A stretch of DNA of 64,000 nucleotides from Gammaproteobacteria bacterium (GCA_020051015.1 JAGVJQ010000091.1:1881-65880), one strand, 5' to 3'. Counted from the first letter of the stretch, positions 486-52,730 are shown. Notes: generated from the sequence alone by a model not told the origin. Made by a program: numbers and translations.

Positions 486-1520
486 TTACATCTTTAACTT
501 TAACATTTCCCAGTATTGGGCATAAAGCGCAACAGTTTGATCAGATAGATCCGTTTGGAATTGTCCATGTTTTAAAATCTCATGAGATGGATAAATCATC
601 GGATTGTTACGGATCTTTTCGGGCATCAATTTTTGTGCTTCTAAATTAGGTGTCGCATAAAAGTATGCCATACTGCTTTGTAGAGCAATATCTGGGCGCA
701 TCATAAAGTTAATAAATTTAAGTGCATTTTGATAATGAGGCGCATCTTTAGGGATAGCAAAACAATCAACCCAAATTACAAAACCATCTTTGGGATAAAT
801 AAATACTAAATTAGGATTATTTAGCTGAGCTCGATATAAATCCCCATTCCATGTCATGCCCACAGTTGCATCTTCATCAGTGATAATAGATGCAGCAGCA
901 TCGCTGACAAATAATTTAATATTGGCGCGCAATTTTAATAACTGCTCGTAAGCCTGTTTAATATGCTCAGAATTATTATCATTGGCTGAATAACCTAATG
1001 ACATAAGTGTCATTGGAATCACTTCACGGACATCGTCGAGAAGCAAGATTTGATTATCAAATCTTGGTTGCCATAAATCACTCCAACGCTGAATGGTATT
1101 AGGGTCAAAAAATTTTTTATTAACAAAAATACCAGTAACACCCCATAAATTTGGCATGCTATATTTATTGCCAGGATCATAAGGTTCATTCAAAAACTCT
1201 GGATCTAGATATTTCATATTAGAAATCTTGGTTAAATCCAAGGGTTCTAACATTTGTTCTTTGCGCATGCGGTCAACATAATAACTGGATGGCTCAATCA
1301 CATCATAACCAGGATTATCAACGGCTTTTAATTTGGCATACAACGTTTCATTACTATCGTAAGTGGAAAAATTAACTTTGATTCCTGTTTCTTTTTGAAA
1401 TTGTTTAACTACAGCATCAGGAATTTCACCTGACCAAGCATAAACATTTACCATATTATCATCAGCGAAAGCATAACAAGAAAAAGTCAACAAGAGTGCT
1501 GTCAGTAAGTTTTTTATCAT
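486..1520 (-). CDS. potD: spermidine/putrescine ABC transporter, periplasmic binding protein
   Basis: 344 aa with a signal peptide (MIKNLLTALLLTFSCYAFA) and a PotD/PotF-like SBP. Last gene of a potA-B-C-D ordered operon with overlapping stop/start codons. Confidence 0.85.
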   Translation of the reverse strand: MIKNLLTALLLTFSCYAFADDNMVNVYAWSGEIPDAVVKQFQKETGIKVNFSTYDSNETLYAKLKAVDNPGYDVIEPSSYYVDRMRKEQMLEPLDLTKISNMKYLDPEFLNEPYDPGNKYSMPNLWGVTGIFVNKKFFDPNTIQRWSDLWQPRFDNQILLLDDVREVIPMTLMSLGYSANDNNSEHIKQAYEQLLKLRANIKLFVSDAAASIITDEDATVGMTWNGDLYRAQLNNPNLVFIYPKDGFVIWVDCFAIPKDAPHYQNALKFINFMMRPDIALQSSMAYFYATPNLEAQKLMPEKIRNNPMIYPSHEILKHGQFQTDLSDQTVALYAQYWEMLKLKM

Positions 1521-2296
1521 GACTCTTTCCTCGTCAATTTTTGCGATAACACAACTAATAGCAACGTCAAAATAAATGTTACGCTACAAAGCGCATTTAA
1601 TTCGGGTTTAACGCCAAGTCTTGCCATCGAATAAATCTTCAATGGTAAAATTTCAAAGCCAGGGCCAGAAACAAAATAACTAATCATGACATCATCAAAG
1701 GACAACGTGAAGCATAGTAAAATTCCAGAGATAATGGCTGGCAATAATAACGGTACCGTAATTTTAGTGAAAATCGTTAACTCACGTGCGCCAAGATCTT
1801 TTGCGGCTTCAAAGATATTCTTATCCATACCGGATATACGGCTGTACACAGTAACGACTACAAAGGGAATGCAGAAGGTAATGTGAGCCAATAATAAGCT
1901 CCAAAAGCCTAAGGGCATATTCAAAATGCTAAATAATAATAATAACGAAATACCCATGACAATATCTGGCGTTACTATTAAAATAAAAATCATGCCATTC
2001 AGCAATCCTTTTCCCATAAAGCGATAACGATAAAGACTTACGGCAGCTAATGTGCCAATAATCGTCGCAAAGGTGGCGGCTAAAACACCGATAATGAGAG
2101 AATGCAATGCCGCAATCCACAAACCACTATCACTAAATAGAGAGTGATACCAATTGGTTGTAAAACCATGCCATACCAAAGAATAACTTGAGTTATTAAA
2201 TGAATAAACAATCAGTACAGCAATCGGTAAATAAAAAAACAAATAAATCAGAGCCAGATATATGGCATCGATAGGGCGAGTTTGTGATTTTTTCAT
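1517..2296 (-). CDS. potC: spermidine/putrescine ABC transporter permease
   Basis: 259 aa, about 6 TM, EAA loop EAAKDLGARELTIFTKITVP. Overlaps potD and potB by 4 nt. Confidence 0.85.
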   Translation of the reverse strand: MKKSQTRPIDAIYLALIYLFFYLPIAVLIVYSFNNSSYSLVWHGFTTNWYHSLFSDSGLWIAALHSLIIGVLAATFATIIGTLAAVSLYRYRFMGKGLLNGMIFILIVTPDIVMGISLLLLFSILNMPLGFWSLLLAHITFCIPFVVVTVYSRISGMDKNIFEAAKDLGARELTIFTKITVPLLLPAIISGILLCFTLSFDDVMISYFVSGPGFEILPLKIYSMARLGVKPELNALCSVTFILTLLLVVLSQKLTRKES

Positions 2297-3147
2297 AGAA
2301 AATCTTCCCCCGAACGATTTTTAGATGATAACCAATGAGCAACTAACATGATGCCCATCACTGCAGTTAATGTTACGCTGATGGCTGAACCTAAAGGCCA
2401 ATTGTGGGTAAGTAAAAATTGATTTTCAATTAAGTTACCCAGTAGCAAAGCCTTTGCCCCACCTAATAAATCAGGAATATAGAATAATGTCATGGCAGGT
2501 AAAAATACTAAAATAGAACCAGCCAAAATACCGGGCAATGATAAAGGTAAAATTACCTTAGTAAATGTTCGCACTTTACCCGCACCTAAATCACGCGCCG
2601 CCTCAATGAGTCGATTATCAAATTTTTCTAAATTGGCATATAACGGCAAAATCATAAACGGTAATAAGTTATAGACTAAGCCAATCATGACGGCAGTATT
2701 AGTAAATAAAAGTTGTAAGGGGTGATGAATGATCCCTAAATGGATTAAAAAATTGTTTAATACCCCTTTTGTTTTAAGAATTGCCACCATTGCATAGCTG
2801 CGAATAAGTGAACTTGTCCAAAATGGGATGATAAGCAGTAATAATAACAAATCTTTCCAACGGCTAGTCTTGCGCGCCAAAATATAAGCAAAAGGATAAC
2901 CAAGCAAGATACAAAACAAAGTACAAGCACCAGCAATATAAAATGACTTAAAAAAAACAATCACATATAAACTACTGAACAATGTCGTATAGTTGCTAAG
3001 CGTAAAATGGAAATTAAATATTTTGTTACTATCGGGTTGCATGAAGCTGGCGAACAAAACCAGCAAAAATGCAAATAATGCAAAAATGCCTAACCAGGTT
3101 GAAATGATTGCGACTGAAAAATTACGAAAGTTGTTATCACCCTTCAT
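2293..3147 (-). CDS. potB: spermidine/putrescine ABC transporter permease
   Basis: 284 aa polytopic protein with EAA loop EAARDLGAGKVRTFTKVILP. Operon context. Confidence 0.85.
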   Translation of the reverse strand: MKGDNNFRNFSVAIISTWLGIFALFAFLLVLFASFMQPDSNKIFNFHFTLSNYTTLFSSLYVIVFFKSFYIAGACTLFCILLGYPFAYILARKTSRWKDLLLLLLIIPFWTSSLIRSYAMVAILKTKGVLNNFLIHLGIIHHPLQLLFTNTAVMIGLVYNLLPFMILPLYANLEKFDNRLIEAARDLGAGKVRTFTKVILPLSLPGILAGSILVFLPAMTLFYIPDLLGGAKALLLGNLIENQFLLTHNWPLGSAISVTLTAVMGIMLVAHWLSSKNRSGEDFL

Positions 3148-4234
3148 GTGGTAGTATCACCTCCCAACCGTTAACCCAGTGTAACCAAACTTTTTCACCC
3201 AGTGTGTAAACCAGGCTATCATCGTCTTCATCAAAAAACTCAGTGGTAGCCAAGACTTTGCCACTATCAAGACGAACCATTAAATCTACTGTGGTTCCTT
3301 TATAGGTGAAGTCTTCGACAATGCCACGATACATATTAGACGTATCAGTGACTTCGTTTGAATCGTAGACTCGAACATCTTCAGGGCGGACAAGGACAAG
3401 AGCTTTGTCGCCAACAGAGAAATTATGTTTATTGGGATAGGTGTGCGGCATACCTTCAATATTAACGGTAATTTTACCATCCGTTATCGATGAAACATTA
3501 GTTTCAAAAATATTAACTTCGCCAATGAATTTGGCTACGCTGAGGCAAGCTGGTTCTTCATACACCTGACGAGGGGTTCCGATTTGAGTAATGACCCCTT
3601 CACTCATGACAACCACACGATCAGACATAGATAATGCTTCTTCTTGATCATGAGTTACAAATATAAAGGTAATTCCTAGCTTGCGTTGTAGTTGACGCAA
3701 CTCCATTTGCATGGTCTTGCGTAAACGATAATCTAACGAACTTAATGGTTCATCCAGTAATAAGACTAATGGTCGATTTACTACAGCACGAGCAATAGCA
3801 ACACGCTGTTGTTGGCCGCCACTTAGCTGTGCAGGTTTGCGATTGCCAAAATTTTCTAATTTAACCATGCGTAGTGCTTCTTCCACACGTGGTTTGACTT
3901 CATTTTCAGGAATACCATTACAACGTAAACCAAACGCCACATTATCCGAAACAGTCATATGAGGAAATAAAGCATAGCTTTGAAAAACGGTATGAACATG
4001 ACGTTCATGGGGCGGCAATCCTTTTGCATTTTTGCCATCAATATAAATATCGCCATTAGTCGGTTCTTCAAAGCCAGATATCATACGCAAAAGGGTGGTT
4101 TTACCACAACCAGACGGCCCTAATAATGTCAGAAACTCACCGTGTTTGATGGTAAGATCAATACATTTTAATACATCTTGGTCGTTAAAAGACTTAGATA
4201 CGCCTTTTATTTCTACGACGGTTTTATCTGACAT
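3137..4234 (-). CDS. potA: spermidine/putrescine ABC transporter ATPase
   Basis: Walker A GPSGCGKTT, signature LSGGQQQR, Walker B LLLLDEP, plus the C-terminal regulatory domain typical of PotA/MalK. Confidence 0.9.
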   Translation of the reverse strand: MSDKTVVEIKGVSKSFNDQDVLKCIDLTIKHGEFLTLLGPSGCGKTTLLRMISGFEEPTNGDIYIDGKNAKGLPPHERHVHTVFQSYALFPHMTVSDNVAFGLRCNGIPENEVKPRVEEALRMVKLENFGNRKPAQLSGGQQQRVAIARAVVNRPLVLLLDEPLSSLDYRLRKTMQMELRQLQRKLGITFIFVTHDQEEALSMSDRVVVMSEGVITQIGTPRQVYEEPACLSVAKFIGEVNIFETNVSSITDGKITVNIEGMPHTYPNKHNFSVGDKALVLVRPEDVRVYDSNEVTDTSNMYRGIVEDFTYKGTTVDLMVRLDSGKVLATTEFFDEDDDSLVYTLGEKVWLHWVNGWEVILPHEG

Positions 4235-4320
4235 AGGCTAACCCCTGAACATAGCTCTGCAAAAGCGCAAAAGTAGAATATTTAGGGGGTCACGTCAAGC
4301 ATTTTTTTCAAGAACAGACC

Positions 4321-5298
4321 TTAATCGATGTAAATGCCTTTGTCTTTCAACCAAGCAGCGTTATACATCTTGGATAAATACTTGTTCCCCGTATCGCAAA
4401 CAAAGGTTACCACGCGTTTAGGCGTCGTTTGTTCGCGGCAATATTTAAGGGCCCCAGCTAGTAACGTGCCGGTTGAAGAACCACCTAAAATGCCTTCAAG
4501 ACGCAATAAATCGTAGGCAGCCTGAAAAGCTTCTTGATCAGAAACATAATAACCTTTGCTAGCAAGGCTAATATCGCAAATACTGGGTACGAAGTCTTCG
4601 CCTATGCCTTCGACGAGCCATGAACCTACTTCCGTATGTTTACCTGTATTAATTAACTCTGCAATAATAGAGCCTTTAGGATCGGCAACAATAATTTCCG
4701 TGCTAGGAGATGTTTTTTTGAAGTAACGGCCTATGCCGCTCAAGGTGCCACCTGATCCAACACCACAGACAATCGCATCCACTTTATGGTTCATTTGTTC
4801 CCAAATCTCTGGAGCGGTCGATTGTTCATGAGCTAATGGATTTGAGGGATTATTGAATTGATCAATATAAAAAGCATTATCCATCGTTTCGGCCAAACGT
4901 TTAGCCATATCTTGATAGTATTCTGGATGGCCTTTGGTGACATCAGAACGGGTCATGATGACTTCGGCACCTAAAGCACGCAAATGAGCTATTTTCTCAG
5001 GACTCATTTTATCAGGCATAACAATCTTTAGATTGTAGCCTTTAAGTCGGGCTACCAATCCTAATGCAATACCAGTATTGCCGGCAGTTGCCTCAACAAT
5101 AGTGCCACCTGGTTTTAATTGTCCAGTTTTTTCAGCAGCTTCAATCATTGATAAAGCAATTCGATCTTTAATTGAACCACCAGGATTTTGATTTTCCAGT
5201 TTGACAAATAATTTACATTTTCCGGTATCAAGTTGGGTAAGTTCAAATAAGGGTGTATTACCAATCATAGAGAGGGTATTTTGAAAAACGGATTGCAT
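4321..5298 (-). CDS. PLP-dependent cysteine synthase / cystathionine beta-synthase family enzyme
   Basis: 325 aa. PLP-Lys motif NPGGSIKDR, plus GNTG and GVGSGGT loops of fold-type II PLP enzymes. No CBS domains. Confidence 0.8.
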   Translation of the reverse strand: MQSVFQNTLSMIGNTPLFELTQLDTGKCKLFVKLENQNPGGSIKDRIALSMIEAAEKTGQLKPGGTIVEATAGNTGIALGLVARLKGYNLKIVMPDKMSPEKIAHLRALGAEVIMTRSDVTKGHPEYYQDMAKRLAETMDNAFYIDQFNNPSNPLAHEQSTAPEIWEQMNHKVDAIVCGVGSGGTLSGIGRYFKKTSPSTEIIVADPKGSIIAELINTGKHTEVGSWLVEGIGEDFVPSICDISLASKGYYVSDQEAFQAAYDLLRLEGILGGSSTGTLLAGALKYCREQTTPKRVVTFVCDTGNKYLSKMYNAAWLKDKGIYID

Positions 5299-5314
5299 TT
5301 TTTCTTCCTAATAT

Positions 5315-5815
5315 TTAAAGCTTGGCTACAAATCGCCACGGCAACTCAGTTGCGACCGAAATGCCAATGCGTGGAGTAACTGATATTTCAAATTGATTGA
5401 CAGTATCCAATATAAATAATTCGCTTGAGTTTATCATATCAATAGCATTATGTCGTTTATCAATTTGCAAATAACGACATAATTTGCCAGGACCATTTTG
5501 ATGGGTGTCATCAATAAGTAAGCCACGAATTAATACCGCAGCAGCAAATCCTTCCGGCTCGGTGACAATATTCAAGCAATGGTACATACCGTAAATAAAG
5601 TAAACATAAGAAACACCGGGTTGACCAAACATGACTTCAGTCCGCGGCGTTTTACCACGCGAAGCATGGCATGCAGCATCATCAATCGACCTATATGCTT
5701 CAGTTTCAGTGATGATGCCATGTTTTATACCATAGACTAAAGTTTTGCCGATTAAATCTTTAGCTACATCGATAGTATTACGATTAAAGAAGTCACGACT
5801 CAGCCGGTTTGACAT
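5315..5815 (-). CDS. mpg: DNA-3-methyladenine glycosylase (AAG/Mpg family)
   Basis: 166 aa. ITETEAY...MFGQPGVSYVYFIYGMYHCLNIV matches the Mpg/AAG core. Confidence 0.8.
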   Translation of the reverse strand: MSNRLSRDFFNRNTIDVAKDLIGKTLVYGIKHGIITETEAYRSIDDAACHASRGKTPRTEVMFGQPGVSYVYFIYGMYHCLNIVTEPEGFAAAVLIRGLLIDDTHQNGPGKLCRYLQIDKRHNAIDMINSSELFILDTVNQFEISVTPRIGISVATELPWRFVAKL

Positions 5816-6335
5816 TCATATTACCTTTAGGATGATTAGCTTTATGCCACCAAATTAATAAAATAAAACCAATTGCGGGTAATAAAATATCTGTATATAA
5901 AATACTACCAGCATTACCGGGCGCTAAATTATGTTGGGAGATAATTTGGTAAATATGACCACATGCAGCACCCCACAAAAACATGGCGGGCCCTAAAATA
6001 GCACAAAAACGCGCTTCGAAGCTACGTCGCCAAGCATAAAAACCAACTAAGGCAAATCCTAAGCTGGCAAAACCTACTTCGGCTTGGAAAGGGCTTTGTG
6101 CCCATCCAATAAAATGAGCGACATAATCACCATAAAAGACATGGACAACAAAATTATATAAATATCCCACAGCAATATTAAATAAGATAAAAAAAGCTAA
6201 TATTTTTTCTATGACAAATGCATGATTAATGGACTTCGGCTTCATAATAATGGCAATAAATGCGAAGAGTAAACCAAGAATAAATGTGGTGATAGTAAAG
6301 TTGCTTAGTGCAAGCGTAAGGTACTTTTCAATCAT
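5793..6335 (-). CDS. integral membrane protein, unknown function
   Basis: 180 aa with about 5 hydrophobic helices. Its 3' end overlaps the mpg start by 23 nt. Confidence 0.6.
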   Translation of the reverse strand: MIEKYLTLALSNFTITTFILGLLFAFIAIIMKPKSINHAFVIEKILAFFILFNIAVGYLYNFVVHVFYGDYVAHFIGWAQSPFQAEVGFASLGFALVGFYAWRRSFEARFCAILGPAMFLWGAACGHIYQIISQHNLAPGNAGSILYTDILLPAIGFILLIWWHKANHPKGNMNVKPAES

Positions 6336-6344
6336 GGTATTTCC

Positions 6345-6677
6345 TTATTTAGTAAACATTTCCTGTAAAATGGCTAACATTTTATCTGCAGTTGTATTAT
6401 TAAGATGATCGATATAGGTTAGAAGGCGTGTTTGATCAATCGCACGAATTTGGTCAAGCACAATTTCGCCATCAATGCCTTTTAAAGTGATTGGTATTCT
6501 AGTGGGAAGTTGCCGTGTTTTTGATGTTATGGGCGCAATAAGATAGGTTTTCAAAAAATGAATTTCATTTGGAGAGATAATGACACAAGGACGTTTTTTT
6601 TGTATTTCTGCGCCAATGGTGGGATCTAAATTGGTCCAATATATATCAAATCGCTTTATTTTGTGGGCCATTCCCAT
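6345..6677 (-). CDS. mazF: type II toxin, MazF/PemK family endoribonuclease
   Basis: 110 aa. FDIYWTNLDPTIGAEIQKKRPCVIIS...LDQIRAIDQTRL fits the PemK/MazF pattern. Overlaps the upstream antitoxin gene by 22 nt. Confidence 0.8.
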   Translation of the reverse strand: MGMAHKIKRFDIYWTNLDPTIGAEIQKKRPCVIISPNEIHFLKTYLIAPITSKTRQLPTRIPITLKGIDGEIVLDQIRAIDQTRLLTYIDHLNNTTADKMLAILQEMFTK

Positions 6678-6904
6678 TCATCCGTATCAAATTGATTACT
6701 GACAAAATCACTGTCCGATAAATTTTCTTTAGCTGCCTGCTTAAATTGTTTTTCCCAATCGGCACGAACAGCGATTAATGGCTTAACCAATAAACCGTTT
6801 TTTGTTACAAGAAGTTCAAGCTCAGTATCATTCAAATGACATTGTTCAATGAGTGCTTTGGGGATACGGATGCCATACGAATTACCAATTTTAACTAAAT
6901 GCAT
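6656..6904 (-). CDS. mazE: type II antitoxin, MazE/AbrB (SpoVT-AbrB) family
   Basis: 82 aa. N-terminal swapped-hairpin motif VKIGNSYGIRIPKALIE and an acidic C-terminal tail. Lies upstream of, and overlaps, mazF. Confidence 0.75.
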   Translation of the reverse strand: MHLVKIGNSYGIRIPKALIEQCHLNDTELELLVTKNGLLVKPLIAVRADWEKQFKQAAKENLSDSDFVSNQFDTDEWEWPTK

Positions 6905-6927
6905 GATTAAGGACTCATCGCGTAAAT

Positions 6928-6944
6928 AATGTAATTACATTGTA
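6928..6944 (-). promoter_or_regulatory. candidate mazEF operator overlapping a -10 element
   Basis: Perfect 14-bp palindrome AATGTAATTACATT (6928-6941), 24 nt upstream of the mazE ATG. On the coding strand it overlaps TACAAT (6939-6944). Confidence 0.4.
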
Positions 6945-7089
6945 GCACCATGCGGGTGAGTTTTCAAGCATGCAAATAAGTACTATAAGAAACTAGGCGA
7001 TTATGCTATATTAAATTAATTATTCATAGCATTCTTTATGTAAAAAATTGATTTTTAAGGTTAATTTTTTATCTAGTTCGAGGTGGTTA

Positions 7090-7713
7090 ATGGCAACTTA
7101 CATTTTTGATTTCGATGGTACTCTCGCTGACAGTTTTGCCATTGCGTTTGAGATATTATTAACTCAAGCTTCTGCATTAGGCTGTAAGCAATTACATCCT
7201 AGTGATTTAGATAAAATTAAACAAATGCATGCGCGGGAATTACTTAAATATTTACATATCCCTTTTTGGAGAGTTCCTCGATTCGTCAAAAAATTACGTA
7301 AATTAGGTAAAACAAAAATAGCAGAGGTAACTATTTTTCCTGAATGGCATGAAGTACTCACACACTTAAAGAATAATAATCATACGCTAGGCATTCTAAG
7401 CAGTAATGCTCATGGTAGTGTGGAGATAGTTTTAAGAAAACATGGATTATATGAATTATTTGATTTTGTTATTTCAGGAAGATCCTTATTTGGGAAGGGG
7501 CGCTACTTAAAACGCTTAATGAAGCAATTTAATTGTATTCATGCTGAGACCTATTATATTGGCGATGAAGTGAGAGATATAGAAGCAGCTAAGGCAAATA
7601 AGATTCAGGCTATTGCCGTGGCATGGGGGTTTAATTCACCTAGCCGATTGCAGGCAGCGCAACCGACATTCATTATCCAACATCCAAGTGAGATATTAGC
7701 TCTTGCGGATTAA
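7090..7713 (+). CDS. HAD-superfamily phosphatase (phosphoglycolate phosphatase-like)
   Basis: Motif I FDFDGTLADS, motif IV YIGDEVRDIEAA. I prefer the ATG at 7090 (GAGGTGG SD 4 nt upstream) over the track TTG at 7048. Confidence 0.75.
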   Translation: MATYIFDFDGTLADSFAIAFEILLTQASALGCKQLHPSDLDKIKQMHARELLKYLHIPFWRVPRFVKKLRKLGKTKIAEVTIFPEWHEVLTHLKNNNHTLGILSSNAHGSVEIVLRKHGLYELFDFVISGRSLFGKGRYLKRLMKQFNCIHAETYYIGDEVRDIEAAKANKIQAIAVAWGFNSPSRLQAAQPTFIIQHPSEILALAD

Positions 7714-7742
7714 TATATCCATTACACACCAACTAGATCATT

Positions 7743-7778
7743 CGTAGGGGCGTATGCAATACGCCCCTACGATAGATT
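7743..7778. repeat. REP family copy (GTAG-headed hairpin)
   Basis: CGTAGGGGCGTAT-GCA-ATACGCCCCTACG is a perfect 13-bp stem, followed by the tail ATAGATT. Confidence 0.85.
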
Positions 7779-7868
7779 GGTGATGGCATTAATCGACCAT
7801 AGCGAAACTAGGGTATAGTGCTTGCTTAAAATCCCGACATTCGTTAATATACGCGCTCTTAATGATCC

Positions 7869-7959
7869 GGAGAGATGGCCGAGCGGCTGAAGGCGCACGC
7901 CTGGAAAGTGTGTATACGGCAAAACCGTATCGAGGGTTCGAATCCCTCTCTCTCCGCCA
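7869..7959 (+). tRNA. tRNA-Ser (anticodon GGA)
   Basis: Acceptor GGAGAGA/TCTCTCC, discriminator G and encoded CCA. Anticodon loop CTGGAAA, long variable arm (TATACGGCAAAACCGTAT), T-loop GGTTCGAATCC. Confidence 0.9.
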
Positions 7960-8003
7960 AATTTTGAAAAGATAGAATTCGTCGATTCATTTATAATTTT
8001 CCC

Positions 8004-8110
8004 GTTCGACAAATCGGCAGGAAGCCGATTTGCACGGGCGAAGCCCGCCCGAAGGGCGAAGGCCAGGGATGGCCTGAGTGAATCCCTCTCTCTCCGCCAA
8101 TTTTCAAAAA
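8004..8110 (+). repeat. second partial copy of the tRNA-Ser 3' end (att-like direct repeat), interrupted by a hairpin element
   Basis: GTTCGA (8004-8009) plus ATCCCTCTCTCTCCGCCAATTTTCAAAAA (8082-8110) repeats tRNA/flank 7936-7970 with 1 indel and 1 mismatch. Confidence 0.8.
8010..8081. mobile_element. four-hairpin GC-rich miniature element, copy A
   Basis: Four consecutive stems: AAATCGGC/GCCGATTT, GGGC/GCCC, GCCC/GGGC, AGGCCA/TGGCCT. Homologous to 52650-52719. Deleting it restores GTTCGA^ATCCC of the tRNA T-arm. Confidence 0.65.
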
Positions 8111-8961
8111 AACTCCGCCAATCCTAACCAATCATCTGGATCCATATTATCCTCAACCGCCCAGCAAGCAGCCAAAATACATTGTACATAACTCCAATCT
8201 CGAATTCGTTGTGCATCAATACTTAAATTATCAGCAAATAATTTAATTCGGGTTTTAATTAAATCCGGATGAGTCTGTATTTCAGGGATAGGATTACGAA
8301 TAAATGCTCCTACTTCATAGGCAGGCTCACCAATAACACCTTTCGGATCAATAGCGATCCATTTATTTATACCATTCGATAAAATATTGTCATGATGTAA
8401 ATCGCCATGCAACAAAACAAGCTCGGTAGACGTTGCCAATAATTGTGTACGTAAATTTCTTGCTTGTTGCAAATGATATAATGGTAAGGGATGATCTTTA
8501 TCAAGGGTTTTTAACCACTCTGCAATTGTAGGAAAGTTAAGATTGTCTTTAATGGGCGCGGAGTGCAATTCATGCATAATGGTGCAAGTAATCTCAACGG
8601 CTTCCTTATCTTGCTGTGGGAATAATTGCTTCAGTGATTGTCCAGGGATTGCTAACTCAAGCAATAATGCATTTTGTGCAGGAAGATATTCAAACAATTT
8701 AACGCAGCCATGACCATCAAAAGCACGCAATGCTTTTATTTCTCGTTGCATACCCATGACATCAAGACCCAATTTCAGAACGATAGCTTTGCCGTACTGA
8801 GCTCCAGCGAGCAGATAATGATAAGAATGTTCGCCTAAAGGTTGTAAATCTTGCAAATGTAATTGTTGTGCAAGTTGTTGGATCAAAGATGGCAACTGGA
8901 TAAGCCACGTTTTGCCTTGTTGCCCCCAGATATTGATAATGTTATTTTCAAATGTGTCCAT
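8104..8961 (-). CDS. aminoglycoside phosphotransferase, APH(6)/StrB-like
   Basis: Catalytic loop LLHGDLHHDNIL, IDPKGVIGEPAYE, and a C-terminal CILAACWAVED resembling StrB. I prefer the ATG at 8961 (MDTFENN...). The longer track ORF would overlap the divergent gene. Confidence 0.75.
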   Translation of the reverse strand: MDTFENNIINIWGQQGKTWLIQLPSLIQQLAQQLHLQDLQPLGEHSYHYLLAGAQYGKAIVLKLGLDVMGMQREIKALRAFDGHGCVKLFEYLPAQNALLLELAIPGQSLKQLFPQQDKEAVEITCTIMHELHSAPIKDNLNFPTIAEWLKTLDKDHPLPLYHLQQARNLRTQLLATSTELVLLHGDLHHDNILSNGINKWIAIDPKGVIGEPAYEVGAFIRNPIPEIQTHPDLIKTRIKLFADNLSIDAQRIRDWSYVQCILAACWAVEDNMDPDDWLGLAEFF

Positions 8962-9003
8962 AAGAGGTATTATGCCAATAAAATCACTAAATGCACATTG
9001 CTT

Positions 9004-10053
9004 ATGAGTAAAGTAAATCCAGAATCTATTATTATCGAACCTTATGATCCGACGTGGCCACAACAAGCTGAGCAAGAAATTGCTATGTTGAAAGATTGTT
9101 GCGCATTTCCATGGGTGATGGACATCCAACATGTTGGTAGTACAGCGGTGCCTGAATTAAATGCCAAACCGATTATTGATATTATGATAGGCGTGAAAAA
9201 TATTAATGAAGCACGAGCATTAATTCCACTATTGGAAACCATGGGTTACATTTTTTGGGATAAAAATCCTAAACCAAATCACTTGGTTTTTATTAAAGGT
9301 ATGCCTCCTTATGGCAAAAAGCGCACGCATCATGTACATGTATTTAAAATGGATTCATACGAGTGGTTAATTCACCACGTTTTTCGTGATTATTTACGTA
9401 TGCATCAAAATACAAAAGTTGCCTATCAACAATTAAAAGAAGAATTGGCTGAAAAGTTTAAAGACGACCGTGAGGCATATACTGCAGCAAAAGCTGAATT
9501 TATAAAAAGTATTCTGCAATCGGCTGCAAAAAAATTAATTACATTTACATCTTTATCCAAAGTTGATTTTCCACTAGTTTATAATTGGTTTAATGAACCG
9601 CACGTACAAGAGTTTTACTCCTTGCGGTCCTGGACGTTAGATGAAGTCACTAAAAAACTGGCTCCGTATATCGACGGTAGTAAAAAAGTAAATGGTTTTA
9701 TTTGTCATATTGATAAAAAGGCGATTGGCTATATTCAATATTACAATCTAGCGGATTATCCAATACCCGATCAAGATATTGCACAAGATGTCGTTATTAA
9801 GGCAGCTGGCATAGATTTTTTTATCGGTGATAAAGGTTTTCTGAAGAAAGGATTGGCTGGGATTATTTTAGAAGAATTTTTGCATCAGCAAATTTGGCCT
9901 CATTATCAATATTGCATTGTTGATCCTGATATACGCAACCAGCGATCGATTGATTTTTTTGCGAAACATGGTTTTAAGAAGCATAAAATAATTGTCACAA
10001 AAGATGTACTGCAAAGAGAGGTTAAGTTGCAGTTGATGATTAGAAAGAATTAG
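9004..10053 (+). CDS. fusion protein: GrpB nucleotidyltransferase-fold domain + AAC(6')-Ib-type GNAT acetyltransferase
   Basis: The N-terminal half has DIQHVGSTAVPELNAKPIIDIMIGV (GrpB/UPF0157). The C-terminal half has NEPHVQEFY, IGYIQYY, GIDFFIG, KGLAG and VDPDIRNQRSIDFFAKHGF, collinear with AAC(6')-Ib / Acetyltransf_8. Start moved to the ATG at 9004. Confidence 0.65.
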   Translation: MSKVNPESIIIEPYDPTWPQQAEQEIAMLKDCCAFPWVMDIQHVGSTAVPELNAKPIIDIMIGVKNINEARALIPLLETMGYIFWDKNPKPNHLVFIKGMPPYGKKRTHHVHVFKMDSYEWLIHHVFRDYLRMHQNTKVAYQQLKEELAEKFKDDREAYTAAKAEFIKSILQSAAKKLITFTSLSKVDFPLVYNWFNEPHVQEFYSLRSWTLDEVTKKLAPYIDGSKKVNGFICHIDKKAIGYIQYYNLADYPIPDQDIAQDVVIKAAGIDFFIGDKGFLKKGLAGIILEEFLHQQIWPHYQYCIVDPDIRNQRSIDFFAKHGFKKHKIIVTKDVLQREVKLQLMIRKN

Positions 10054-10071
10054 GTTGATTAGGAAATTAAT

Positions 10072-10482
10072 ATGATAACAGGCATGAATCACATTACGCT
10101 TGCGGTAAAAGACATTAAAAAGTCTTTTGAATTTTATCATCAAGTATTGGGTTTAAAACCACTTTGTTGCTGGGACAAAGGCGCTTATTTTTTAGTGGGT
10201 GATTTTTGGTTTTGCTTAAACGTAGATGATAAGCGTGAAGTTAACTCATGTTATACACATTATGCTTTTAGCGTTTCAGCCAGTGATTTTCAAACAATGA
10301 GTGAGAAAATAATAACATCAGGAGCAATCGTTTTTAAAGAAAATACGTCACCCGGTGAATCATTATATTTCCTAGATCCTGACGGACACAAACTGGAAAT
10401 TCATGCTAGTGATTGGCAAACGAGAATTTTAACTAAAAAAGCAGAGCCTGGGCATTGGACAGGAATAGAATGGTTTGTATAA
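10072..10482 (+). CDS. fosA: FosA-like fosfomycin-resistance glutathione transferase (VOC superfamily)
   Basis: 136 aa. MNHITLAV (His7), YTHYAFSV (His), YFLDPDGHKLEIH (Glu) align with the FosA metal ligands and length. Confidence 0.75.
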   Translation: MITGMNHITLAVKDIKKSFEFYHQVLGLKPLCCWDKGAYFLVGDFWFCLNVDDKREVNSCYTHYAFSVSASDFQTMSEKIITSGAIVFKENTSPGESLYFLDPDGHKLEIHASDWQTRILTKKAEPGHWTGIEWFV

Positions 10483-10517
10483 TGGCATATTAATAATAAT
10501 TTACCAGGCGTAAAATA

Positions 10518-11366
10518 ATGAGCATACTTTCAATTCAATCACATGTCGCGTATGGCTATGTGGGTAATAAAGCGGCAGTTTTCCCATTGCAATCAATGGG
10601 TTATGACGTTTGGCCGGTTAACACCGTACAATTTTCTAACCATACAGGTTATGGCAAATGGACGGGCGAATTATTTACCGTACAACACGTTAATGACGTT
10701 GTCAGCGGCATTGAGCAATTAGGTGTAGCAGAACAATGCCAAGCTATATTATCGGGTTATCTTGGTAGTGGTTTAATTGGTAATAGTATTTTAGATATTG
10801 TTGGTCGGTTTAAAAAATATAATCCTAATTTAATTTACTTATGCGATCCCGTCGTTGGTGATATTGGCCGAGGAGTGTTTGTTAAATCTGAAGTATTAGA
10901 GTTTTTTAAATCACATTTACATGCAGATATTATTACGCCGAATCATTTTGAAGCTGAAATTTTATCAGGTAAGACTATTACAAACTTAAGTGACGCCAAA
11001 CAAGTTGCAAATTATTTTCATCAACGTAATGTTAAAATAGTGATAATCACTAGTTTACGAATAGAAGAAGCGGCAGCGGATAAAATTCATGTTTTCCTAT
11101 CACATAATGGTAATTCTTATTTAGCCGAAGCACCACTATATCATTTTCCCATCGCACCTAATGGCACGGGTGATTTATTTTCATCTTTATTTTTAGGCAG
11201 TTACTTGCAACTACACGATAATGCAAAAGCGCTTGAACAGAGCTTGGGTTTGATGGATACCGTAATGGCTGAAACATTTAAACATAATAGCCGGGAATTA
11301 AAAGTTGTAAATGTTGACTATCGACATTTGCCAATAGAGAAACGAGTAACTGTTAAAAGTGTATAG
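10518..11366 (+). CDS. pdxY: pyridoxal kinase
   Basis: ILSIQSHVAYGYVGNKAAVFPLQ...WPVNTVQFSNHTGYGKWTG closely parallels the E. coli PdxY N-terminus. Ribokinase-type GTGD motif present. Confidence 0.9.
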   Translation: MSILSIQSHVAYGYVGNKAAVFPLQSMGYDVWPVNTVQFSNHTGYGKWTGELFTVQHVNDVVSGIEQLGVAEQCQAILSGYLGSGLIGNSILDIVGRFKKYNPNLIYLCDPVVGDIGRGVFVKSEVLEFFKSHLHADIITPNHFEAEILSGKTITNLSDAKQVANYFHQRNVKIVIITSLRIEEAAADKIHVFLSHNGNSYLAEAPLYHFPIAPNGTGDLFSSLFLGSYLQLHDNAKALEQSLGLMDTVMAETFKHNSRELKVVNVDYRHLPIEKRVTVKSV

Positions 11367-11373
11367 GCGTTGA

Positions 11374-11398
11374 TGGGGTTGAGTTTCTCTCAGCCCCA
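11374..11398. terminator. hairpin between convergent genes (possible bidirectional terminator)
   Basis: TGGGGTTGAG-TTTCT-CTCAGCCCCA is a 10-bp stem with one G-U pair. There is no clear U-tract. Confidence 0.35.
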
Positions 11399-11418
11399 CC
11401 GGAGACCCTAATTAGGGG

Positions 11419-11592
11419 CTATCGTACTACCACAGTAGAAGGTGTTCTAACAACGGTTGGTTGTTGTTTAACCACGACTGTATTAGCTGGATGGCCTACA
11501 TAAGTACGATTAGGGTAATTATATTCATTGGTACAACCCGTTAAAGTTACCAAACTCACTGCAGCAAGCACAATAAAAAGACATTGTTTCAT
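11419..11592 (-). CDS. small lipoprotein
   Basis: Starts MKQCLFIVLAAVSLVTLTGC with a lipobox LTGC. ATG at 11592 with AGGA upstream. Val/Thr-rich mature part. Confidence 0.6.
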   Translation of the reverse strand: MKQCLFIVLAAVSLVTLTGCTNEYNYPNRTYVGHPANTVVVKQQPTVVRTPSTVVVR

Positions 11593-11701
11593 AATAAAAT
11601 CCTGTTGAAATGTGATTAACATAAATTTCTAAAACTCATGCGTGTTGAGTATAACATCGACTAGTTATAAAAAGAACAATTAATTAACAAATGCAGTTAC
11701 C

Positions 11702-11986
11702 TTAATCAACTAAGTTCTTAACAAGAAATTTTTTCAAATCCGGTGCAATTCGCTTTAACTCATTAGAACCGCGGGTAATTTTTGCAATGCTGACATGTAA
11801 TTCATCCGCCATTTGTCGTTGTGGTAATTCTTGTTTTAATAATGCTTTAATAATCAAACAGCGGGTAGAAACCGCATCCTTTTCCTCGGCAGTGAGAAAA
11901 AGCTCCAATAAGGTAGATAATGCTTTTTCATTTTTAGCCGATAAACATAATTGAATAAACTCATGCCAGCCTTGTTCGTTTGTCAT
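11702..11986 (-). CDS. trpR: Trp operon repressor
   Basis: 94 aa. LTAEEKDAVSTRCLIIKALL...SQ/RQMADELHVSIAKITRGSNELK parallels E. coli TrpR ([20 protein letters not shown]...GIATITRGSNSLK). AGGAG SD, 22 nt after the trpA stop. Confidence 0.85.
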   Translation of the reverse strand: MTNEQGWHEFIQLCLSAKNEKALSTLLELFLTAEEKDAVSTRCLIIKALLKQELPQRQMADELHVSIAKITRGSNELKRIAPDLKKFLVKNLVD

Positions 11987-52528: not shown

Positions 52529-52730
52529 ATTTACAATTCTACTATGCTGGGCATTAAGCCTCGATTTTCGGCGCTCCGCTGCTCACAGACGGCCAAGTAT
52601 GCTCCGCTGCGGTGCTCGAAAATCAAGTCTTTCTGCCACAGCCTAGCGACAAATTGGCGCCAGCCAATTTGGACGGCTAAAAGCCGCCCCGCAGGGGTGA
52701 GGGCCGAAGGCCCGAATCAATTGTAAACAG
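52529..52730. repeat. composite repeat: TTTACAATT hairpin element carrying two nested miniature inserts
   Basis: The outer sequence matches 31701-31748. An 83-nt insert (52562-52644) has IR CGATTTTCGG/TCGAAAATCA. The 70-nt four-hairpin insert lies at 52650-52719. Confidence 0.75.
52650..52719. mobile_element. four-hairpin GC-rich miniature element, copy B
   Basis: Stems AAATTGGC/GCCAATTT, CGGC/GCCG, CCCC/GGGG, GGGCC/GGCCC. Collinear with 8010-8081, with compensatory stem changes. Confidence 0.65.

What the first reader, a model, noticed from the sequence alone, without database searches (positions are those of the whole stretch)
7869..10482. tRNA-Ser-anchored islet with three putative antibiotic-modifying enzymes, one a GrpB-AAC(6')-like fusion
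The last roughly 26 nt of tRNA-Ser(GGA) plus about 10 nt of flank (7936-7970) are repeated at 8004-8009 + 8082-8110. This is the signature of site-specific integration at a tRNA 3' end, but no integrase remains.

Three genes sit directly beyond the second copy:
- An APH(6)/StrB-like kinase (HGDLHHDNIL).
- A 349-aa fusion, 42 bp away and divergent. It joins a GrpB nucleotidyltransferase-fold domain to a GNAT collinear with AAC(6')-Ib.
- A FosA-like VOC enzyme with all three metal ligands.

That is three resistance chemistries in 2.4 kb. The NTase-fold + acetyltransferase fusion would be a new bifunctional architecture, by analogy with AAC(6')-Ie-APH(2'')-Ia.
Basis: partly seen in the sequence, partly recalled or inferred. 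Interest (0 to 1): 0.65.

Follow-up and report, generated by a model that had tools for sequence, protein, structure and literature searches.

The report
Putative drug-modifying gene trio beside tRNA-Ser
Three intact genes for likely small-molecule-modifying enzymes (a kinase, a GrpB-acetyltransferase fusion and a FosA-like enzyme) lie between a serine tRNA and pdxY in an uncultured Legionellales bacterium, but they sit outside the small tRNA-end duplication, and every gene type, including the fusion, already occurs in other intracellular bacteria, so this is an ordinary accessory cluster.

Summary
The sequence facts mostly hold. tRNA-Ser(GGA) is at 7869-7959. Its last 20 nt plus 11 nt of flank recur at 8080-8110, and no shuffle gave this. 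The three ORFs are intact.

The island reading is weak:
- The two repeat copies are 140 nt apart and bracket only about 109 nt. This includes a 77-nt GC-rich hairpin element that has a second copy at 52647.
- The three genes lie outside the repeats, there is no third copy and no integrase, and GC and GC3 match the neighbouring genes.
- The kinase stop codon is 4 nt from the second copy, so the kinase looks like the tRNA's native neighbour.

Relatives give a mixed picture. The closest one (PdxY 82% identical) keeps GNAT, an extra GNAT, fos and pdxY in order. A more distant one (73%) has tRNA-Ser next to pdxY with no block, in the opposite orientation.

All three proteins belong to the named families and keep the catalytic residues, but all score below NCBI's curated resistance cut-offs.

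The fusion's GNAT half is closer to AAC(6')-Im/Ie/Ib than to siderophore acyltransferases. The GrpB-GNAT architecture is not new: about 25 clusters at 90% identity and about 8 at 50% have it, and several lie beside other GNAT and APH genes. GrpB has no known activity.

Verdict: a new member of known kinds, of low to moderate interest.

The parts
7869..7959 (+). tRNA-Ser(GGA), intact
   Evidence: ARAGORN. Rfam RF00005 at 56.2 bits. It is 96-97% identical to the tRNA-Ser(GGA) of Legionellales MAG 29, locus L001.
7940..7970 (+). Repeat copy 1: the last 20 nt of the tRNA (from the T-loop to CCA) plus 11 nt of downstream flank
   Evidence: the repeat finder family D1. The exact 20-mer occurs twice in the window, and none of 100 shuffles gave a match.
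8007..8083 (+). A 77-nt GC-rich (65% GC) multi-hairpin repeat element, copy E1. It fills most of the interval between the two tRNA-end copies, and its last 4 nt overlap repeat copy 2.
   Evidence: A second copy lies at 52647-52722 (alignment; a motif with 2 hits and 0 expected; nhmmer 70 and 67 bits). The fold z-score for 7960-8110 is -3.1. Two stems show compensatory changes. There is no Rfam family match.
8080..8110 (+). Repeat copy 2: an att-like duplicate of the tRNA 3' end plus flank. Its flank part overlaps the last two codons and the stop of the kinase gene.
   Evidence: The kinase stop codon is at 8104-8106.
8104..8961 (-). APH(6)/Hur-family small-molecule kinase, 285 aa. It has the VLK lysine (K63), HGDLHHDN at 185-192 and IDPKG at 204-208.
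   Evidence: Pfam PF04655 at 136 bits. NCBIfam APH_6 scores 121 bits against a cut-off of 325. Homologs at about 50% identity occur in Legionella, Tisiphia, Orientia and TM6. The motifs are conserved in 120 homologs. No PDB sequence hit.
9004..10053 (+). GrpB-GNAT fusion, 349 aa. The GrpB domain covers residues 9-172 (nt 9028-9519). The AAC(6')-like Acetyltransf_8 domain covers residues 188-330 (nt 9565-9993).
   Evidence: Pfam. AlphaFold2 model with pLDDT 91.3 and pTM 0.85. Foldseek matches 2NRK at TM 0.90 and AAC(6')-Ib at TM 0.79. Profile against PDB. Invariant residues are H43, G45, S46, T47, K55, D59, R107, H109, H110, H112, K145 and E157 in GrpB, and Q245 and D271 in the GNAT.
10072..10482 (+). 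FosA-like VOC metalloenzyme, 136 aa
   Evidence: NCBIfam Fos_GSH scores 155 bits against a cut-off of 180. The PDB search gives FosA 1NPB 125 bits, FosB 79 and FosX 53. It is 45% identical to 1NPB. H7, T9, W34, Y39, W46, C48, H63, K89, N91, S93, G95, S97, Y99, E109 and R118 are invariant or nearly so (at least 99%) in 120 homologs.
10518..11366 (+). pdxY (pyridoxal kinase), the housekeeping gene at the right-hand boundary
   Evidence: NCBIfam PdxY scores 309 bits against a cut-off of 292. It is adjacent to fos in relative L041 as well and adjacent to tRNA-Ser in relative L001.

Best explanation
This is a chromosomal accessory cluster in an uncultured Legionellales bacterium. It holds three independent enzymes that probably modify small molecules such as antibiotics or other xenobiotics.

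1. An APH(6)/Hur-family kinase that would phosphorylate a hydroxyl group using ATP.
2. A GrpB-GNAT protein. Its C-terminal AAC(6')-like domain would N-acetylate an amine on a probably polycationic substrate using acetyl-CoA, with D271 as the general base. The role of its N-terminal GrpB domain is unknown.
3. A FosA-like Mn/K-type thiol transferase that would open an epoxide such as fosfomycin.

The cluster lies between tRNA-Ser(GGA) and pdxY. The duplicated tRNA 3' end is a separate small scar, probably a vestigial att pair from an integrated element that was later almost wholly deleted. It encloses only about 109 nt, which includes a dispersed GC-rich hairpin repeat. The three genes lie on the chromosomal side of that scar, so that event did not deliver them. 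The kinase was probably already the tRNA's convergent neighbour.

The cluster is old and turns over genes. Its right part is conserved in the closest relative with one extra GNAT gene, it is absent from a more distant relative, and its composition is fully ameliorated. The gene types belong to the pool shared among amoeba-associated intracellular bacteria.

Shown here: coordinates, domains, conserved catalytic residues, synteny, and the distribution of the architecture. Inferred: the substrates, the resistance phenotype and the history of the scar.
For: Repeat geometry and uniqueness. The kinase stop is 4 nt after the second CCA.

No mobility genes: the flanking genes are a potABCD-like transporter, a PLP enzyme, MPG, DUF6790, MazEF, a HAD hydrolase, pdxY, a TrpR-family gene and trpA/B/F.

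Composition: the three genes have GC 0.35-0.38 and GC3 0.26-0.30. Their neighbours have GC 0.35-0.41 and GC3 0.20-0.33.

Relatives:
- L041 (PdxY 82%, Fos 79%, DNA 78% identical) has the order GNAT8 (59% identical), an extra 150-aa GNAT, fos, pdxY.
- L001 (PdxY 73% identical) has tRNA-Ser 110 bp from pdxY with no block.

Family and active-site evidence.

Homologs of the fusion lie in similar clusters:
- L046 has an APH gene directly upstream.
- L035 has three other GNAT genes (one of them Acetyltransf_8) and an APH.
- L037 has NUDIX, GNAT, RibD_C and GFA genes.
- L036 has a beta-lactamase-fold gene and an MFS gene.

Fos and APH homologs are spread across Legionella, Holosporales, Rhabdochlamydiaceae, Rickettsiales and TM6. 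Fos homologs lie beside an integrase, transposases or AbiE genes elsewhere.

PMC3220658 lists APH-family, GNAT and AAC(6') genes among candidate transfers between intra-amoebal bacteria.
Against: - No activity has been measured for any of the three proteins.
- All three score below NCBI's curated cut-offs. The whole Fos clade scores about 152-158 against 180.
- The Fos clade carries P94 and N50 where, from memory, FosA has E95 and S50. The metal, K+ or thiol requirements may therefore differ.
- Only two relatives could be found, and only 64 kb of the genome is visible.
- L001 has the tRNA in the opposite orientation relative to pdxY, so a simple insertion or deletion does not link the two arrangements.
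- The L041 contig ends inside the GNAT gene. Neither the fusion nor the kinase nor the tRNA can be checked there.
- A tandem-island history, in which the second copy is the attL of an older island, cannot be formally excluded.
Confidence: 0.62

Rival explanations
1. The three genes are the cargo of a genomic island that integrated at the 3' end of tRNA-Ser. The copy at 8080-8110 is then the attL of an older island in a tandem array. The integrase and the distal att site have since been lost.
For: - The att-like duplication of the tRNA 3' end is real.
- L001 has tRNA-Ser and pdxY as direct neighbours without the block.
- The cargo is of accessory type. Fos homologs elsewhere lie next to an integrase, transposases or AbiE genes.
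- The gene content at this spot differs between the window and L041, which has an extra GNAT.
Against: - There is no third repeat copy, even allowing 3 mismatches in 16 or 20 nt.
- No integrase or remnant was seen among the neighbouring genes scanned.
- The kinase stop lies 4 nt from the second copy, leaving no room for a recombination module.
- Composition is identical to the flanks.
- GNAT..fos-pdxY is conserved in a relative whose PdxY is only 82% identical.
- The tRNA orientation in L001 is inverted.
Confidence: 0.2
2. The proteins are not antibiotic-resistance enzymes. They would act on endogenous or host-derived metabolites, or on host targets. The kinase and GNAT would be metabolite or host-directed modifiers, and the FosA-like protein a general epoxide or electrophile detoxifier. 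GrpB would be a CoA- or nucleotide-handling accessory domain for the GNAT, not a second drug-modifying activity.
For: - All three score below the curated resistance cut-offs.
- The families are abundant in obligate intracellular bacteria such as Orientia, Tisiphia, Holosporales and Rhabdochlamydiaceae, where exposure to antibiotics is doubtful.
- GrpB is fused to partners that handle CoA or nucleotides: dephospho-CoA kinase CoaE (NCBIfam PRK03333 at 81 bits; PDB 6N39), GNATs of several Pfam families, NUDIX and a metallophosphoesterase (P0094, P0112, P0116 and P0087). A NUDIX gene lies next to the fusion in L037.
- The only experimental report found on UPF0157/GrpB assigns it a folding role in M. 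tuberculosis CoaE (PMC2765170).
Against: - The FosA substrate-binding and metal-binding residues are invariant or nearly so. The protein is much closer to FosA than to FosB, FosX or glyoxalases.
- The GNAT half is closest to bona fide AAC(6') enzymes.
- Three-domain homologs add a GNAT like PA3944 (123 bits). PA3944 is, from memory, an enzyme that acetylates polymyxin in vitro.
- The genes co-localise with APH, beta-lactamase-fold and MFS genes.
Confidence: 0.15

Closest known systems
FosA (Mn2+/K+-dependent fosfomycin:glutathione transferase; PDB 1NPB, 1LQP, 5V3D)
   Same: Both are 136-aa VOC-fold proteins. The window protein is 45% identical to Tn2921 FosA. The metal ligands H7, H63 and E109 are invariant or nearly so, as are the equivalents of T9, Y39, W46, C48, K90, S94, S98, Y100 and R119. 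The residue roles are from my knowledge of the FosA literature.
   Different: It belongs to a distinct clade of several hundred proteins 65-79% identical to it, from Legionella, Holosporales and chlamydial MAGs. The members tested here all score about 152-158 bits, below the Fos_GSH cut-off of 180. The clade-specific residues N50 and P94 lie in the GSH and K+-loop region. Activity is untested.
AAC(6')-Ib, -Ie and -Im aminoglycoside 6'-N-acetyltransferases (Pfam Acetyltransf_8)
   Same: The fold matches (Foldseek TM 0.79 to 2VQY). These are the best profile matches, at 81-90 bits. The equivalents of the catalytic Asp (D271), Q245 and D307 are conserved.
   Different: Identity is only 19-24%. 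TIGR04431 scores 54 bits against a cut-off of 260. Several residues that I recall as contacting the aminoglycoside differ (W49 to Y, E73 to K, W102 to D, by the alignment). The domain is fused to an N-terminal GrpB domain.
GrpB / UPF0157 (PF04229; E. faecalis EF0920, PDB 2NRK; C-terminal domain of mycobacterial CoaE)
   Same: Pfam scores 174 bits. The PDB sequence match to 2NRK is 92 bits and the structural TM is 0.90. The GS...D and HHxH signature is invariant.
   Different: Here the domain is fused to an AAC(6')-like GNAT. The family has no assigned catalytic activity.
APH(6)-I (StrA/StrB) streptomycin 6-kinases and Hur (PF04655)
   Same: It is a member of the Pfam family (136 bits). The HGDLHHDN catalytic loop and the IDP metal-binding motif are present.
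   Different: NCBIfam APH_6 scores 121 bits against a cut-off of 325. It groups with uncharacterised homologs about 50% identical to it, from intracellular bacteria. There is no solved relative.
att-flanked remnants of tRNA-integrated elements (CIME-like: att sites without recombination genes)
   Same: There is a direct repeat of the tRNA 3' end, from the T-loop to CCA plus flank, just downstream of an intact tRNA.
   Different: The enclosed DNA is only about 109 nt, with no genes, and is mostly a GC-rich hairpin repeat that also occurs elsewhere in the genome. No cognate integrase is visible.
AAC(6')-Ie-APH(2'')-Ia bifunctional resistance enzyme
   Same: Both are two-domain proteins that contain an AAC(6')-type GNAT. 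The GNAT half is the best single-sequence PDB hit (4QC6, 39.5 bits).
   Different: In the known enzyme the partner is a proven kinase, C-terminal to the GNAT. Here the partner is N-terminal and is a domain of unknown activity. No evidence shows that both halves act on a drug.

Membership tests
tRNA-integrated genomic island | An intact tRNA gene at one boundary | tested here: met
   tRNA-Ser(GGA) at 7869-7959.
tRNA-integrated genomic island | Direct repeats of the tRNA 3' end bracket the cargo genes | tested here: not met
   The copies at 7940-7970 and 8080-8110 bracket about 109 nt. The genes (8104-10482) lie outside. No third copy was found with up to 3 mismatches.
tRNA-integrated genomic island | An integrase or recombinase gene, or its remnant | tested here: not met
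   The genes scanned from 486 to 11986 fall in housekeeping or toxin-antitoxin families only. The trpA/B/F labels beyond that were read from the ORF translations.
tRNA-integrated genomic island | Base composition deviates from the host genome | tested here: not met
   The three genes have GC 0.35-0.38 and GC3 0.26-0.30, within the range of the flanking genes. Window GC is 0.382.
tRNA-integrated genomic island | Presence or absence varies among relatives at the same site | tested here: inconclusive
   The block is absent in L001, where the tRNA is inverted. Its right part is present in L041. Only two relatives were found.
FosA fosfomycin glutathione transferase | VOC fold with a His/His/Glu metal site and the substrate and K+-loop residues | tested here: met
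   H7, H63, E109, T9, K89, S93, S97, Y99 and R118 are invariant or nearly so (at least 99%). P94 replaces the loop Glu.
FosA fosfomycin glutathione transferase | Score at or above the curated NCBIfam Fos_GSH cut-off (180 bits) | tested here: not met
   155.2 bits. Clade relatives score 152-158.
FosA fosfomycin glutathione transferase | Inactivation of fosfomycin dependent on glutathione | not testable with these tools
   This needs MIC measurements and an enzyme assay.
AAC(6') aminoglycoside acetyltransferase (AacA4 / Ib-Ie-Im group) | Acetyltransf_8 GNAT fold with the catalytic Asp | tested here: met
   PF13523 at 81 bits. TM 0.79 to 2VQY. D271 is invariant in 25 homologs.
AAC(6') aminoglycoside acetyltransferase (AacA4 / Ib-Ie-Im group) | Closer to AAC(6') than to siderophore acyltransferases (MbtK, IucB, DfoC) | tested here: met
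   The family profile scores AAC(6')-Im 90, -Ie 89 and -Ib 81 bits, against MbtK 47, Rv1347c 22 and DfoC 20.
AAC(6') aminoglycoside acetyltransferase (AacA4 / Ib-Ie-Im group) | Score at or above the curated cut-off (TIGR04431 260; NF012165 280) | tested here: not met
   54 and 52.7 bits.
AAC(6') aminoglycoside acetyltransferase (AacA4 / Ib-Ie-Im group) | 6'-N-acetylation of aminoglycosides | not testable with these tools
   This needs an enzyme assay and MIC measurements.
APH(6) streptomycin kinase | PF04655 membership and the kinase catalytic motifs | tested here: met
   136 bits. HGDLHHDN at 185, IDPKG at 204 and VLK at 61-63.
APH(6) streptomycin kinase | Score at or above the curated NCBIfam APH_6 cut-off (325 bits) | tested here: not met
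   121.1 bits.
GrpB (PF04229) | Match to the domain model and to the fold of 2NRK | tested here: met
   174 bits. 2NRK matches at 92 bits and TM 0.90.
Bifunctional antibiotic-modifying enzyme | Both domains belong to families with demonstrated drug-modifying activity | tested here: not met
   No activity is known for GrpB. No ANT-type nucleotidyltransferase appears among the top 50 structural matches.

The most novel reading that the evidence does not exclude
The GrpB domain is catalytically active and works together with the fused AAC(6')-like GNAT. It might nucleotidylate the same polycationic antibiotic, or it might act on the adenylate or CoA part of the acyl donor. Either would give GrpB/UPF0157 its first biochemical function and define a rare family of dual-chemistry modifying enzymes in amoeba-associated bacteria. 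The strictly invariant GrpB site (H43, GST 45-47, K55, D59, R107, HHxH 109-112, K145, E157) and the confident inter-domain packing (pTM 0.85) fit an active, coupled domain. So do the recurrent fusions of GrpB to GNATs, CoaE and NUDIX.
Probability: 0.12. Interest if true: 0.6.

Novelty: new member of a known kind. Interest (0 to 1): 0.27.

Why it matters
This adds one more example of the resistance-like enzyme clusters (APH, GNAT, FosA-like) that are shared among Legionellales, Rickettsiales, Holosporales and Chlamydiae.

The most useful lead is the GrpB-GNAT family. It has about 8 clusters at 50% identity among 1.84 billion representative proteins. GrpB is a widespread nucleotidyltransferase-fold domain with no known function. 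Its repeated fusion to enzymes that use CoA suggests a concrete biochemical test.

The finding has no clinical relevance as it stands. The genes sit in the chromosome of an uncultured bacterium, fall below the curated resistance thresholds, and are not linked to any mobility genes.

Tried and rejected
1. Looked for a third att copy that would close an island around the genes. None was found with up to 3 mismatches.
2. Tested the 'split' tRNA copy (GTTCGA at 8004-8009). Rejected: the CGA is the start of a repeated GC-rich element.
3. Looked for close relatives with PdxY. The genome scan gave one usable relative, L001, and 21 unrelated contexts. The metagenome scan gave nothing above 60% identity and no synteny. 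The best relative, L041, came indirectly from the Fos homolog list.
4. An exact look-up of the fusion protein in assemblies found nothing on record.
5. A PDB sequence search for the kinase gave no hit.
6. An Rfam search for the inter-repeat segment and the GC-rich element returned only the tRNA.
7. The promoter and terminator scan was not enriched over shuffles. The only strong promoter-like site lies before pdxY.
8. A literature search for a GrpB function found none beyond the CoaE folding report and fold classifications.
9. Considered a tandem duplication as the origin of the repeat. Rejected because similarity stops after 31 nt.
10. Considered a frameshift artefact creating the fusion. Rejected because more than 20 collinear homologs exist.


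Full report
**Observation**

The window has 38.2% GC. It carries a single tRNA, tRNA-Ser(GGA), at 7869-7959 on the + strand (Rfam 56 bits).

The last 20 nt of the tRNA (GAATCCCTCTCTCTCCGCCA) plus 11 nt of flank recur at 8080-8110. The repeat is 31 nt at 90% identity. The 20-mer occurs exactly twice in 64 kb, and none of 100 shuffles gave a match. A 16-mer search allowing 3 mismatches found the same two sites and no third.

Three intact genes follow the second copy:
- A kinase at 8104-8961 (-), 285 aa, carrying HGDLHHDN.
- A 349-aa ORF at 9004-10053 (+), divergent from the kinase across a 42-bp gap.
- A 136-aa ORF at 10072-10482 (+).
- pdxY follows at 10518-11366.

The raw observation is therefore largely correct.

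**What lies between the repeat copies**

The two copies are only 140 nt apart. The interval holds about 40 nt of AT-rich sequence and a 77-nt segment at 65% GC (8007-8083). This segment folds into several hairpins; the z-score for 7960-8110 is -3.1.

The segment is a repeat element. A second copy lies at 52647-52722. The motif GACAAATYGGC-N3-8-GCCRATTTG has 2 hits against 0 expected, and nhmmer scores the copies at 70 and 67 bits. Two stems show compensatory base changes.

In the second copy that start follows a different flank. Only three bases are left unexplained. I treat that part of the observation as chance.

**Is it an island?**

Under site-specific integration at a tRNA 3' end, the cargo lies between the two repeat copies. 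The distal copy is followed by the original chromosomal flank. Here the genes lie beyond the distal copy.

The kinase stop codon (8104-8106) is 4 nt from the second CCA and lies inside the repeated flank. The simplest reading is that the kinase was already the convergent neighbour of the tRNA when the duplication arose.

Further points against an island:
- There is no third copy.
- No integrase is present. The neighbours are a potABCD-like transporter, a PLP enzyme, MPG, DUF6790, MazEF, a HAD hydrolase, pdxY, a TrpR-family gene and trpA/B/F.
- There is no compositional signal. The three genes have GC 0.35-0.38 and GC3 0.26-0.30, within the range of their neighbours.

A tandem-island history with complete loss of the recombination module and the distal att site cannot be excluded. 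It needs more assumptions.

**Relatives**

The lineage is poorly sampled.

- A PdxY-based scan of 185,579 species genomes gave one informative relative, Legionellales MAG 29 (L001, PdxY 73% identical). There a 96-97% identical tRNA-Ser(GGA) lies 110 bp upstream of pdxY with no intervening genes. The tRNA is in the opposite orientation. Carbonic anhydrase and ankyrin-repeat genes lie on its 3' side.
- The metagenome scan gave nothing closer than 60% and no synteny.
- The closest relative came from the Fos homolog list. It is a 2.4-kb contig, L041, with PdxY 82%, Fos 79% and DNA 78% identical. Its gene order is an AAC(6')-like GNAT (59% identical to the fusion's C-terminal half, cut by the contig end), an extra 150-aa GNAT, fos and pdxY.

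The right part of the block is therefore conserved in a clearly diverged relative, with gene turnover. The block is missing in a more distant relative.

**The proteins**

- Kinase. Pfam APH_6_hur scores 136 bits. NCBIfam APH_6 scores 121 against a cut-off of 325. The catalytic motifs are conserved across 120 homologs. Those homologs are about 50% identical and come from Legionella, Tisiphia, Orientia, Rickettsiales and TM6. No solved relative exists.
- FosA-like protein. NCBIfam Fos_GSH scores 155 against a cut-off of 180. The PDB search gives FosA at 115-125 bits, FosB at 70-79 and FosX at 45-53. It is 45% identical to Tn2921 FosA. All residues that I know as FosA metal, fosfomycin, K+-loop and GSH contacts are invariant or nearly so in its clade. 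The exceptions are the clade-specific N50 and P94. The clade holds hundreds of 136-aa proteins, 65-79% identical to it, from Legionella, Holosporales, Rhabdochlamydiaceae and other MAGs. The members tested score 152-158 bits, just under the curated threshold. Elsewhere these genes lie beside integrase and KfrA, transposase or AbiE genes.
- Fusion. GrpB scores 174 bits and Acetyltransf_8 scores 81 bits. The AlphaFold2 model has pLDDT 91.3 and pTM 0.85. Foldseek matches the N-terminal half to GrpB 2NRK (TM 0.90) and the C-terminal half to AAC(6')-Ib (TM 0.79). The Im enzyme, L. pneumophila 3F5B, EryM/MbtK and Rv1347c follow.

With the single sequence, AAC(6')-Ie, AAC(6')-Ib and MbtK score nearly alike, at 39, 34 and 30 bits. 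With a profile of 25 fusion homologs the separation is clear. AAC(6')-Im, -Ie and -Ib score 90, 89 and 81 bits. MbtK scores 47, Rv1347c 22 and DfoC 20. The GNAT half is therefore AAC(6')-like and not siderophore-like.

The curated AAC(6') models still score only 54 against 260. Several aminoglycoside-contact positions, as I recall them from the AAC(6')-Ib structures, differ. The substrate remains open.

**Novelty of the fusion**

The same two-domain order occurs in about 25 clusters at 90% identity, which are 40-50% identical to the window protein. About 8 clusters at 50% identity have it among 1.84 billion representatives.

These include NCBI-annotated proteins from a Rickettsiales endosymbiont of Stachyamoeba and from a Rickettsiaceae MAG.

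Many homologs are three-domain proteins of about 530 aa. Their extra N-terminal GNAT matches PA3944 at 123 bits.

The GrpB signature residues are invariant in all of them.

Genomic contexts of the homologs resemble the window:
- An APH gene lies directly upstream in L046.
- Three more GNATs (one of them Acetyltransf_8) and an APH lie in L035.
- NUDIX, GNAT, RibD_C and GFA genes lie in L037.
- Beta-lactamase-fold and MFS genes lie in L036.

GrpB is also fused to CoaE, NUDIX, a metallophosphoesterase and other GNAT families, and occurs as tandem GrpB-GrpB proteins.

The open literature holds no catalytic function for GrpB/UPF0157. It holds only a folding role in M. tuberculosis CoaE and classification of the fold. 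Calling the protein an 'NTase plus acetyltransferase bifunctional resistance enzyme' is therefore conjecture. A role linked to CoA or a nucleotide is at least as plausible.

**Conclusion**

This is an ordinary, old, ameliorated accessory cluster of putative small-molecule-modifying enzymes. Its gene types are known to be exchanged among amoeba-associated intracellular bacteria; PMC3220658 lists APH, GNAT and AAC(6') genes among such candidates.

The cluster lies next to a tRNA that carries a small, separate att-like scar. The island inference and the novelty claim are not supported.

The remaining interest lies in two things: the uncharacterised GrpB-GNAT family, and the GC-rich hairpin repeat.

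Noticed in passing
window 8007-8083 and 52647-52722: A 77-nt GC-rich (65% GC) multi-hairpin element is present in two copies in this 38% GC window. The alignment that contains the two copies has 77% mean column identity, and two stems show compensatory changes. Both copies are intergenic. There is no Rfam match. It may be a REP- or MITE-like repeat or a structured RNA or terminator family of this lineage.
   Followed up: partly
window 52540-52646: Just upstream of the second element copy lies another GC-rich stretch with a long inverted repeat (GCCTCGATTTTCG...CGAAAATCAAG). It was seen only by reading the sequence.
   Followed up: no
L041:592-1044: The closest relative carries an extra 150-aa GNAT gene (Acetyltransf_1/3/4-type) between the AAC(6')-like GNAT and fos. 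The window has only 18 nt at that spot, so genes turn over there. The protein has no NCBIfam match at E<=1e-10.
   Followed up: partly
homologs P0005, P0006, P0008-P0011, P0013-P0015, P0017-P0020, P0022 (not in the window): Most relatives of the fusion are three-domain proteins of about 530 aa, in the order GNAT, GrpB, AAC(6')-like GNAT. The extra N-terminal GNAT matches P. aeruginosa PA3944 at 123 bits.
   Followed up: partly
homologs such as P0043 and P0047 (Rickettsiella) and P0364-P0367: GrpB proteins of about 358 aa that match the query's GrpB domain are abundant among the hits, including in Rickettsiella and Thiotrichales. In the representative search, several proteins of about 350 aa (P0364-P0367) match it twice, which suggests tandem GrpB-GrpB. 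GrpB is also fused to NUDIX (P0116), a metallophosphoesterase (P0087) and other GNAT families (P0094, P0112).
   Followed up: no
window 6345-6904 (-): A MazF/PemK toxin (110 aa) and a MazE antitoxin (82 aa) lie two genes upstream of the tRNA, between DUF6790 and the HAD hydrolase.
   Followed up: partly
window 486-4234 (-): A four-gene ABC importer: an SBP_bac_8 binding protein, two permeases, and an ATPase with a TOBE_2 domain. It resembles the potABCD polyamine transporter and may be relevant if the GNAT acts on polyamine-like amines.
   Followed up: no
window 10456-10483: A near-consensus sigma-70-like promoter (TGGACA, 16 nt, TATAAT; 11 of 12 matches) lies inside the 3' end of fos, 35 nt before pdxY. 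This suggests that pdxY is transcribed on its own.
   Followed up: no
window 8114-8123: A third short occurrence of CTCCGCCAAT (10 nt, matching the tRNA end plus flank) lies inside the 3' end of the kinase gene, 14 nt after the second repeat copy. It could be chance.
   Followed up: no
L001 1-5700: In Legionellales MAG 29 the 3' side of tRNA-Ser(GGA) carries a beta-carbonic anhydrase, an ankyrin-repeat protein and large proteins that look effector-like. The flank of this tRNA is therefore variable between the two genomes.
   Followed up: no
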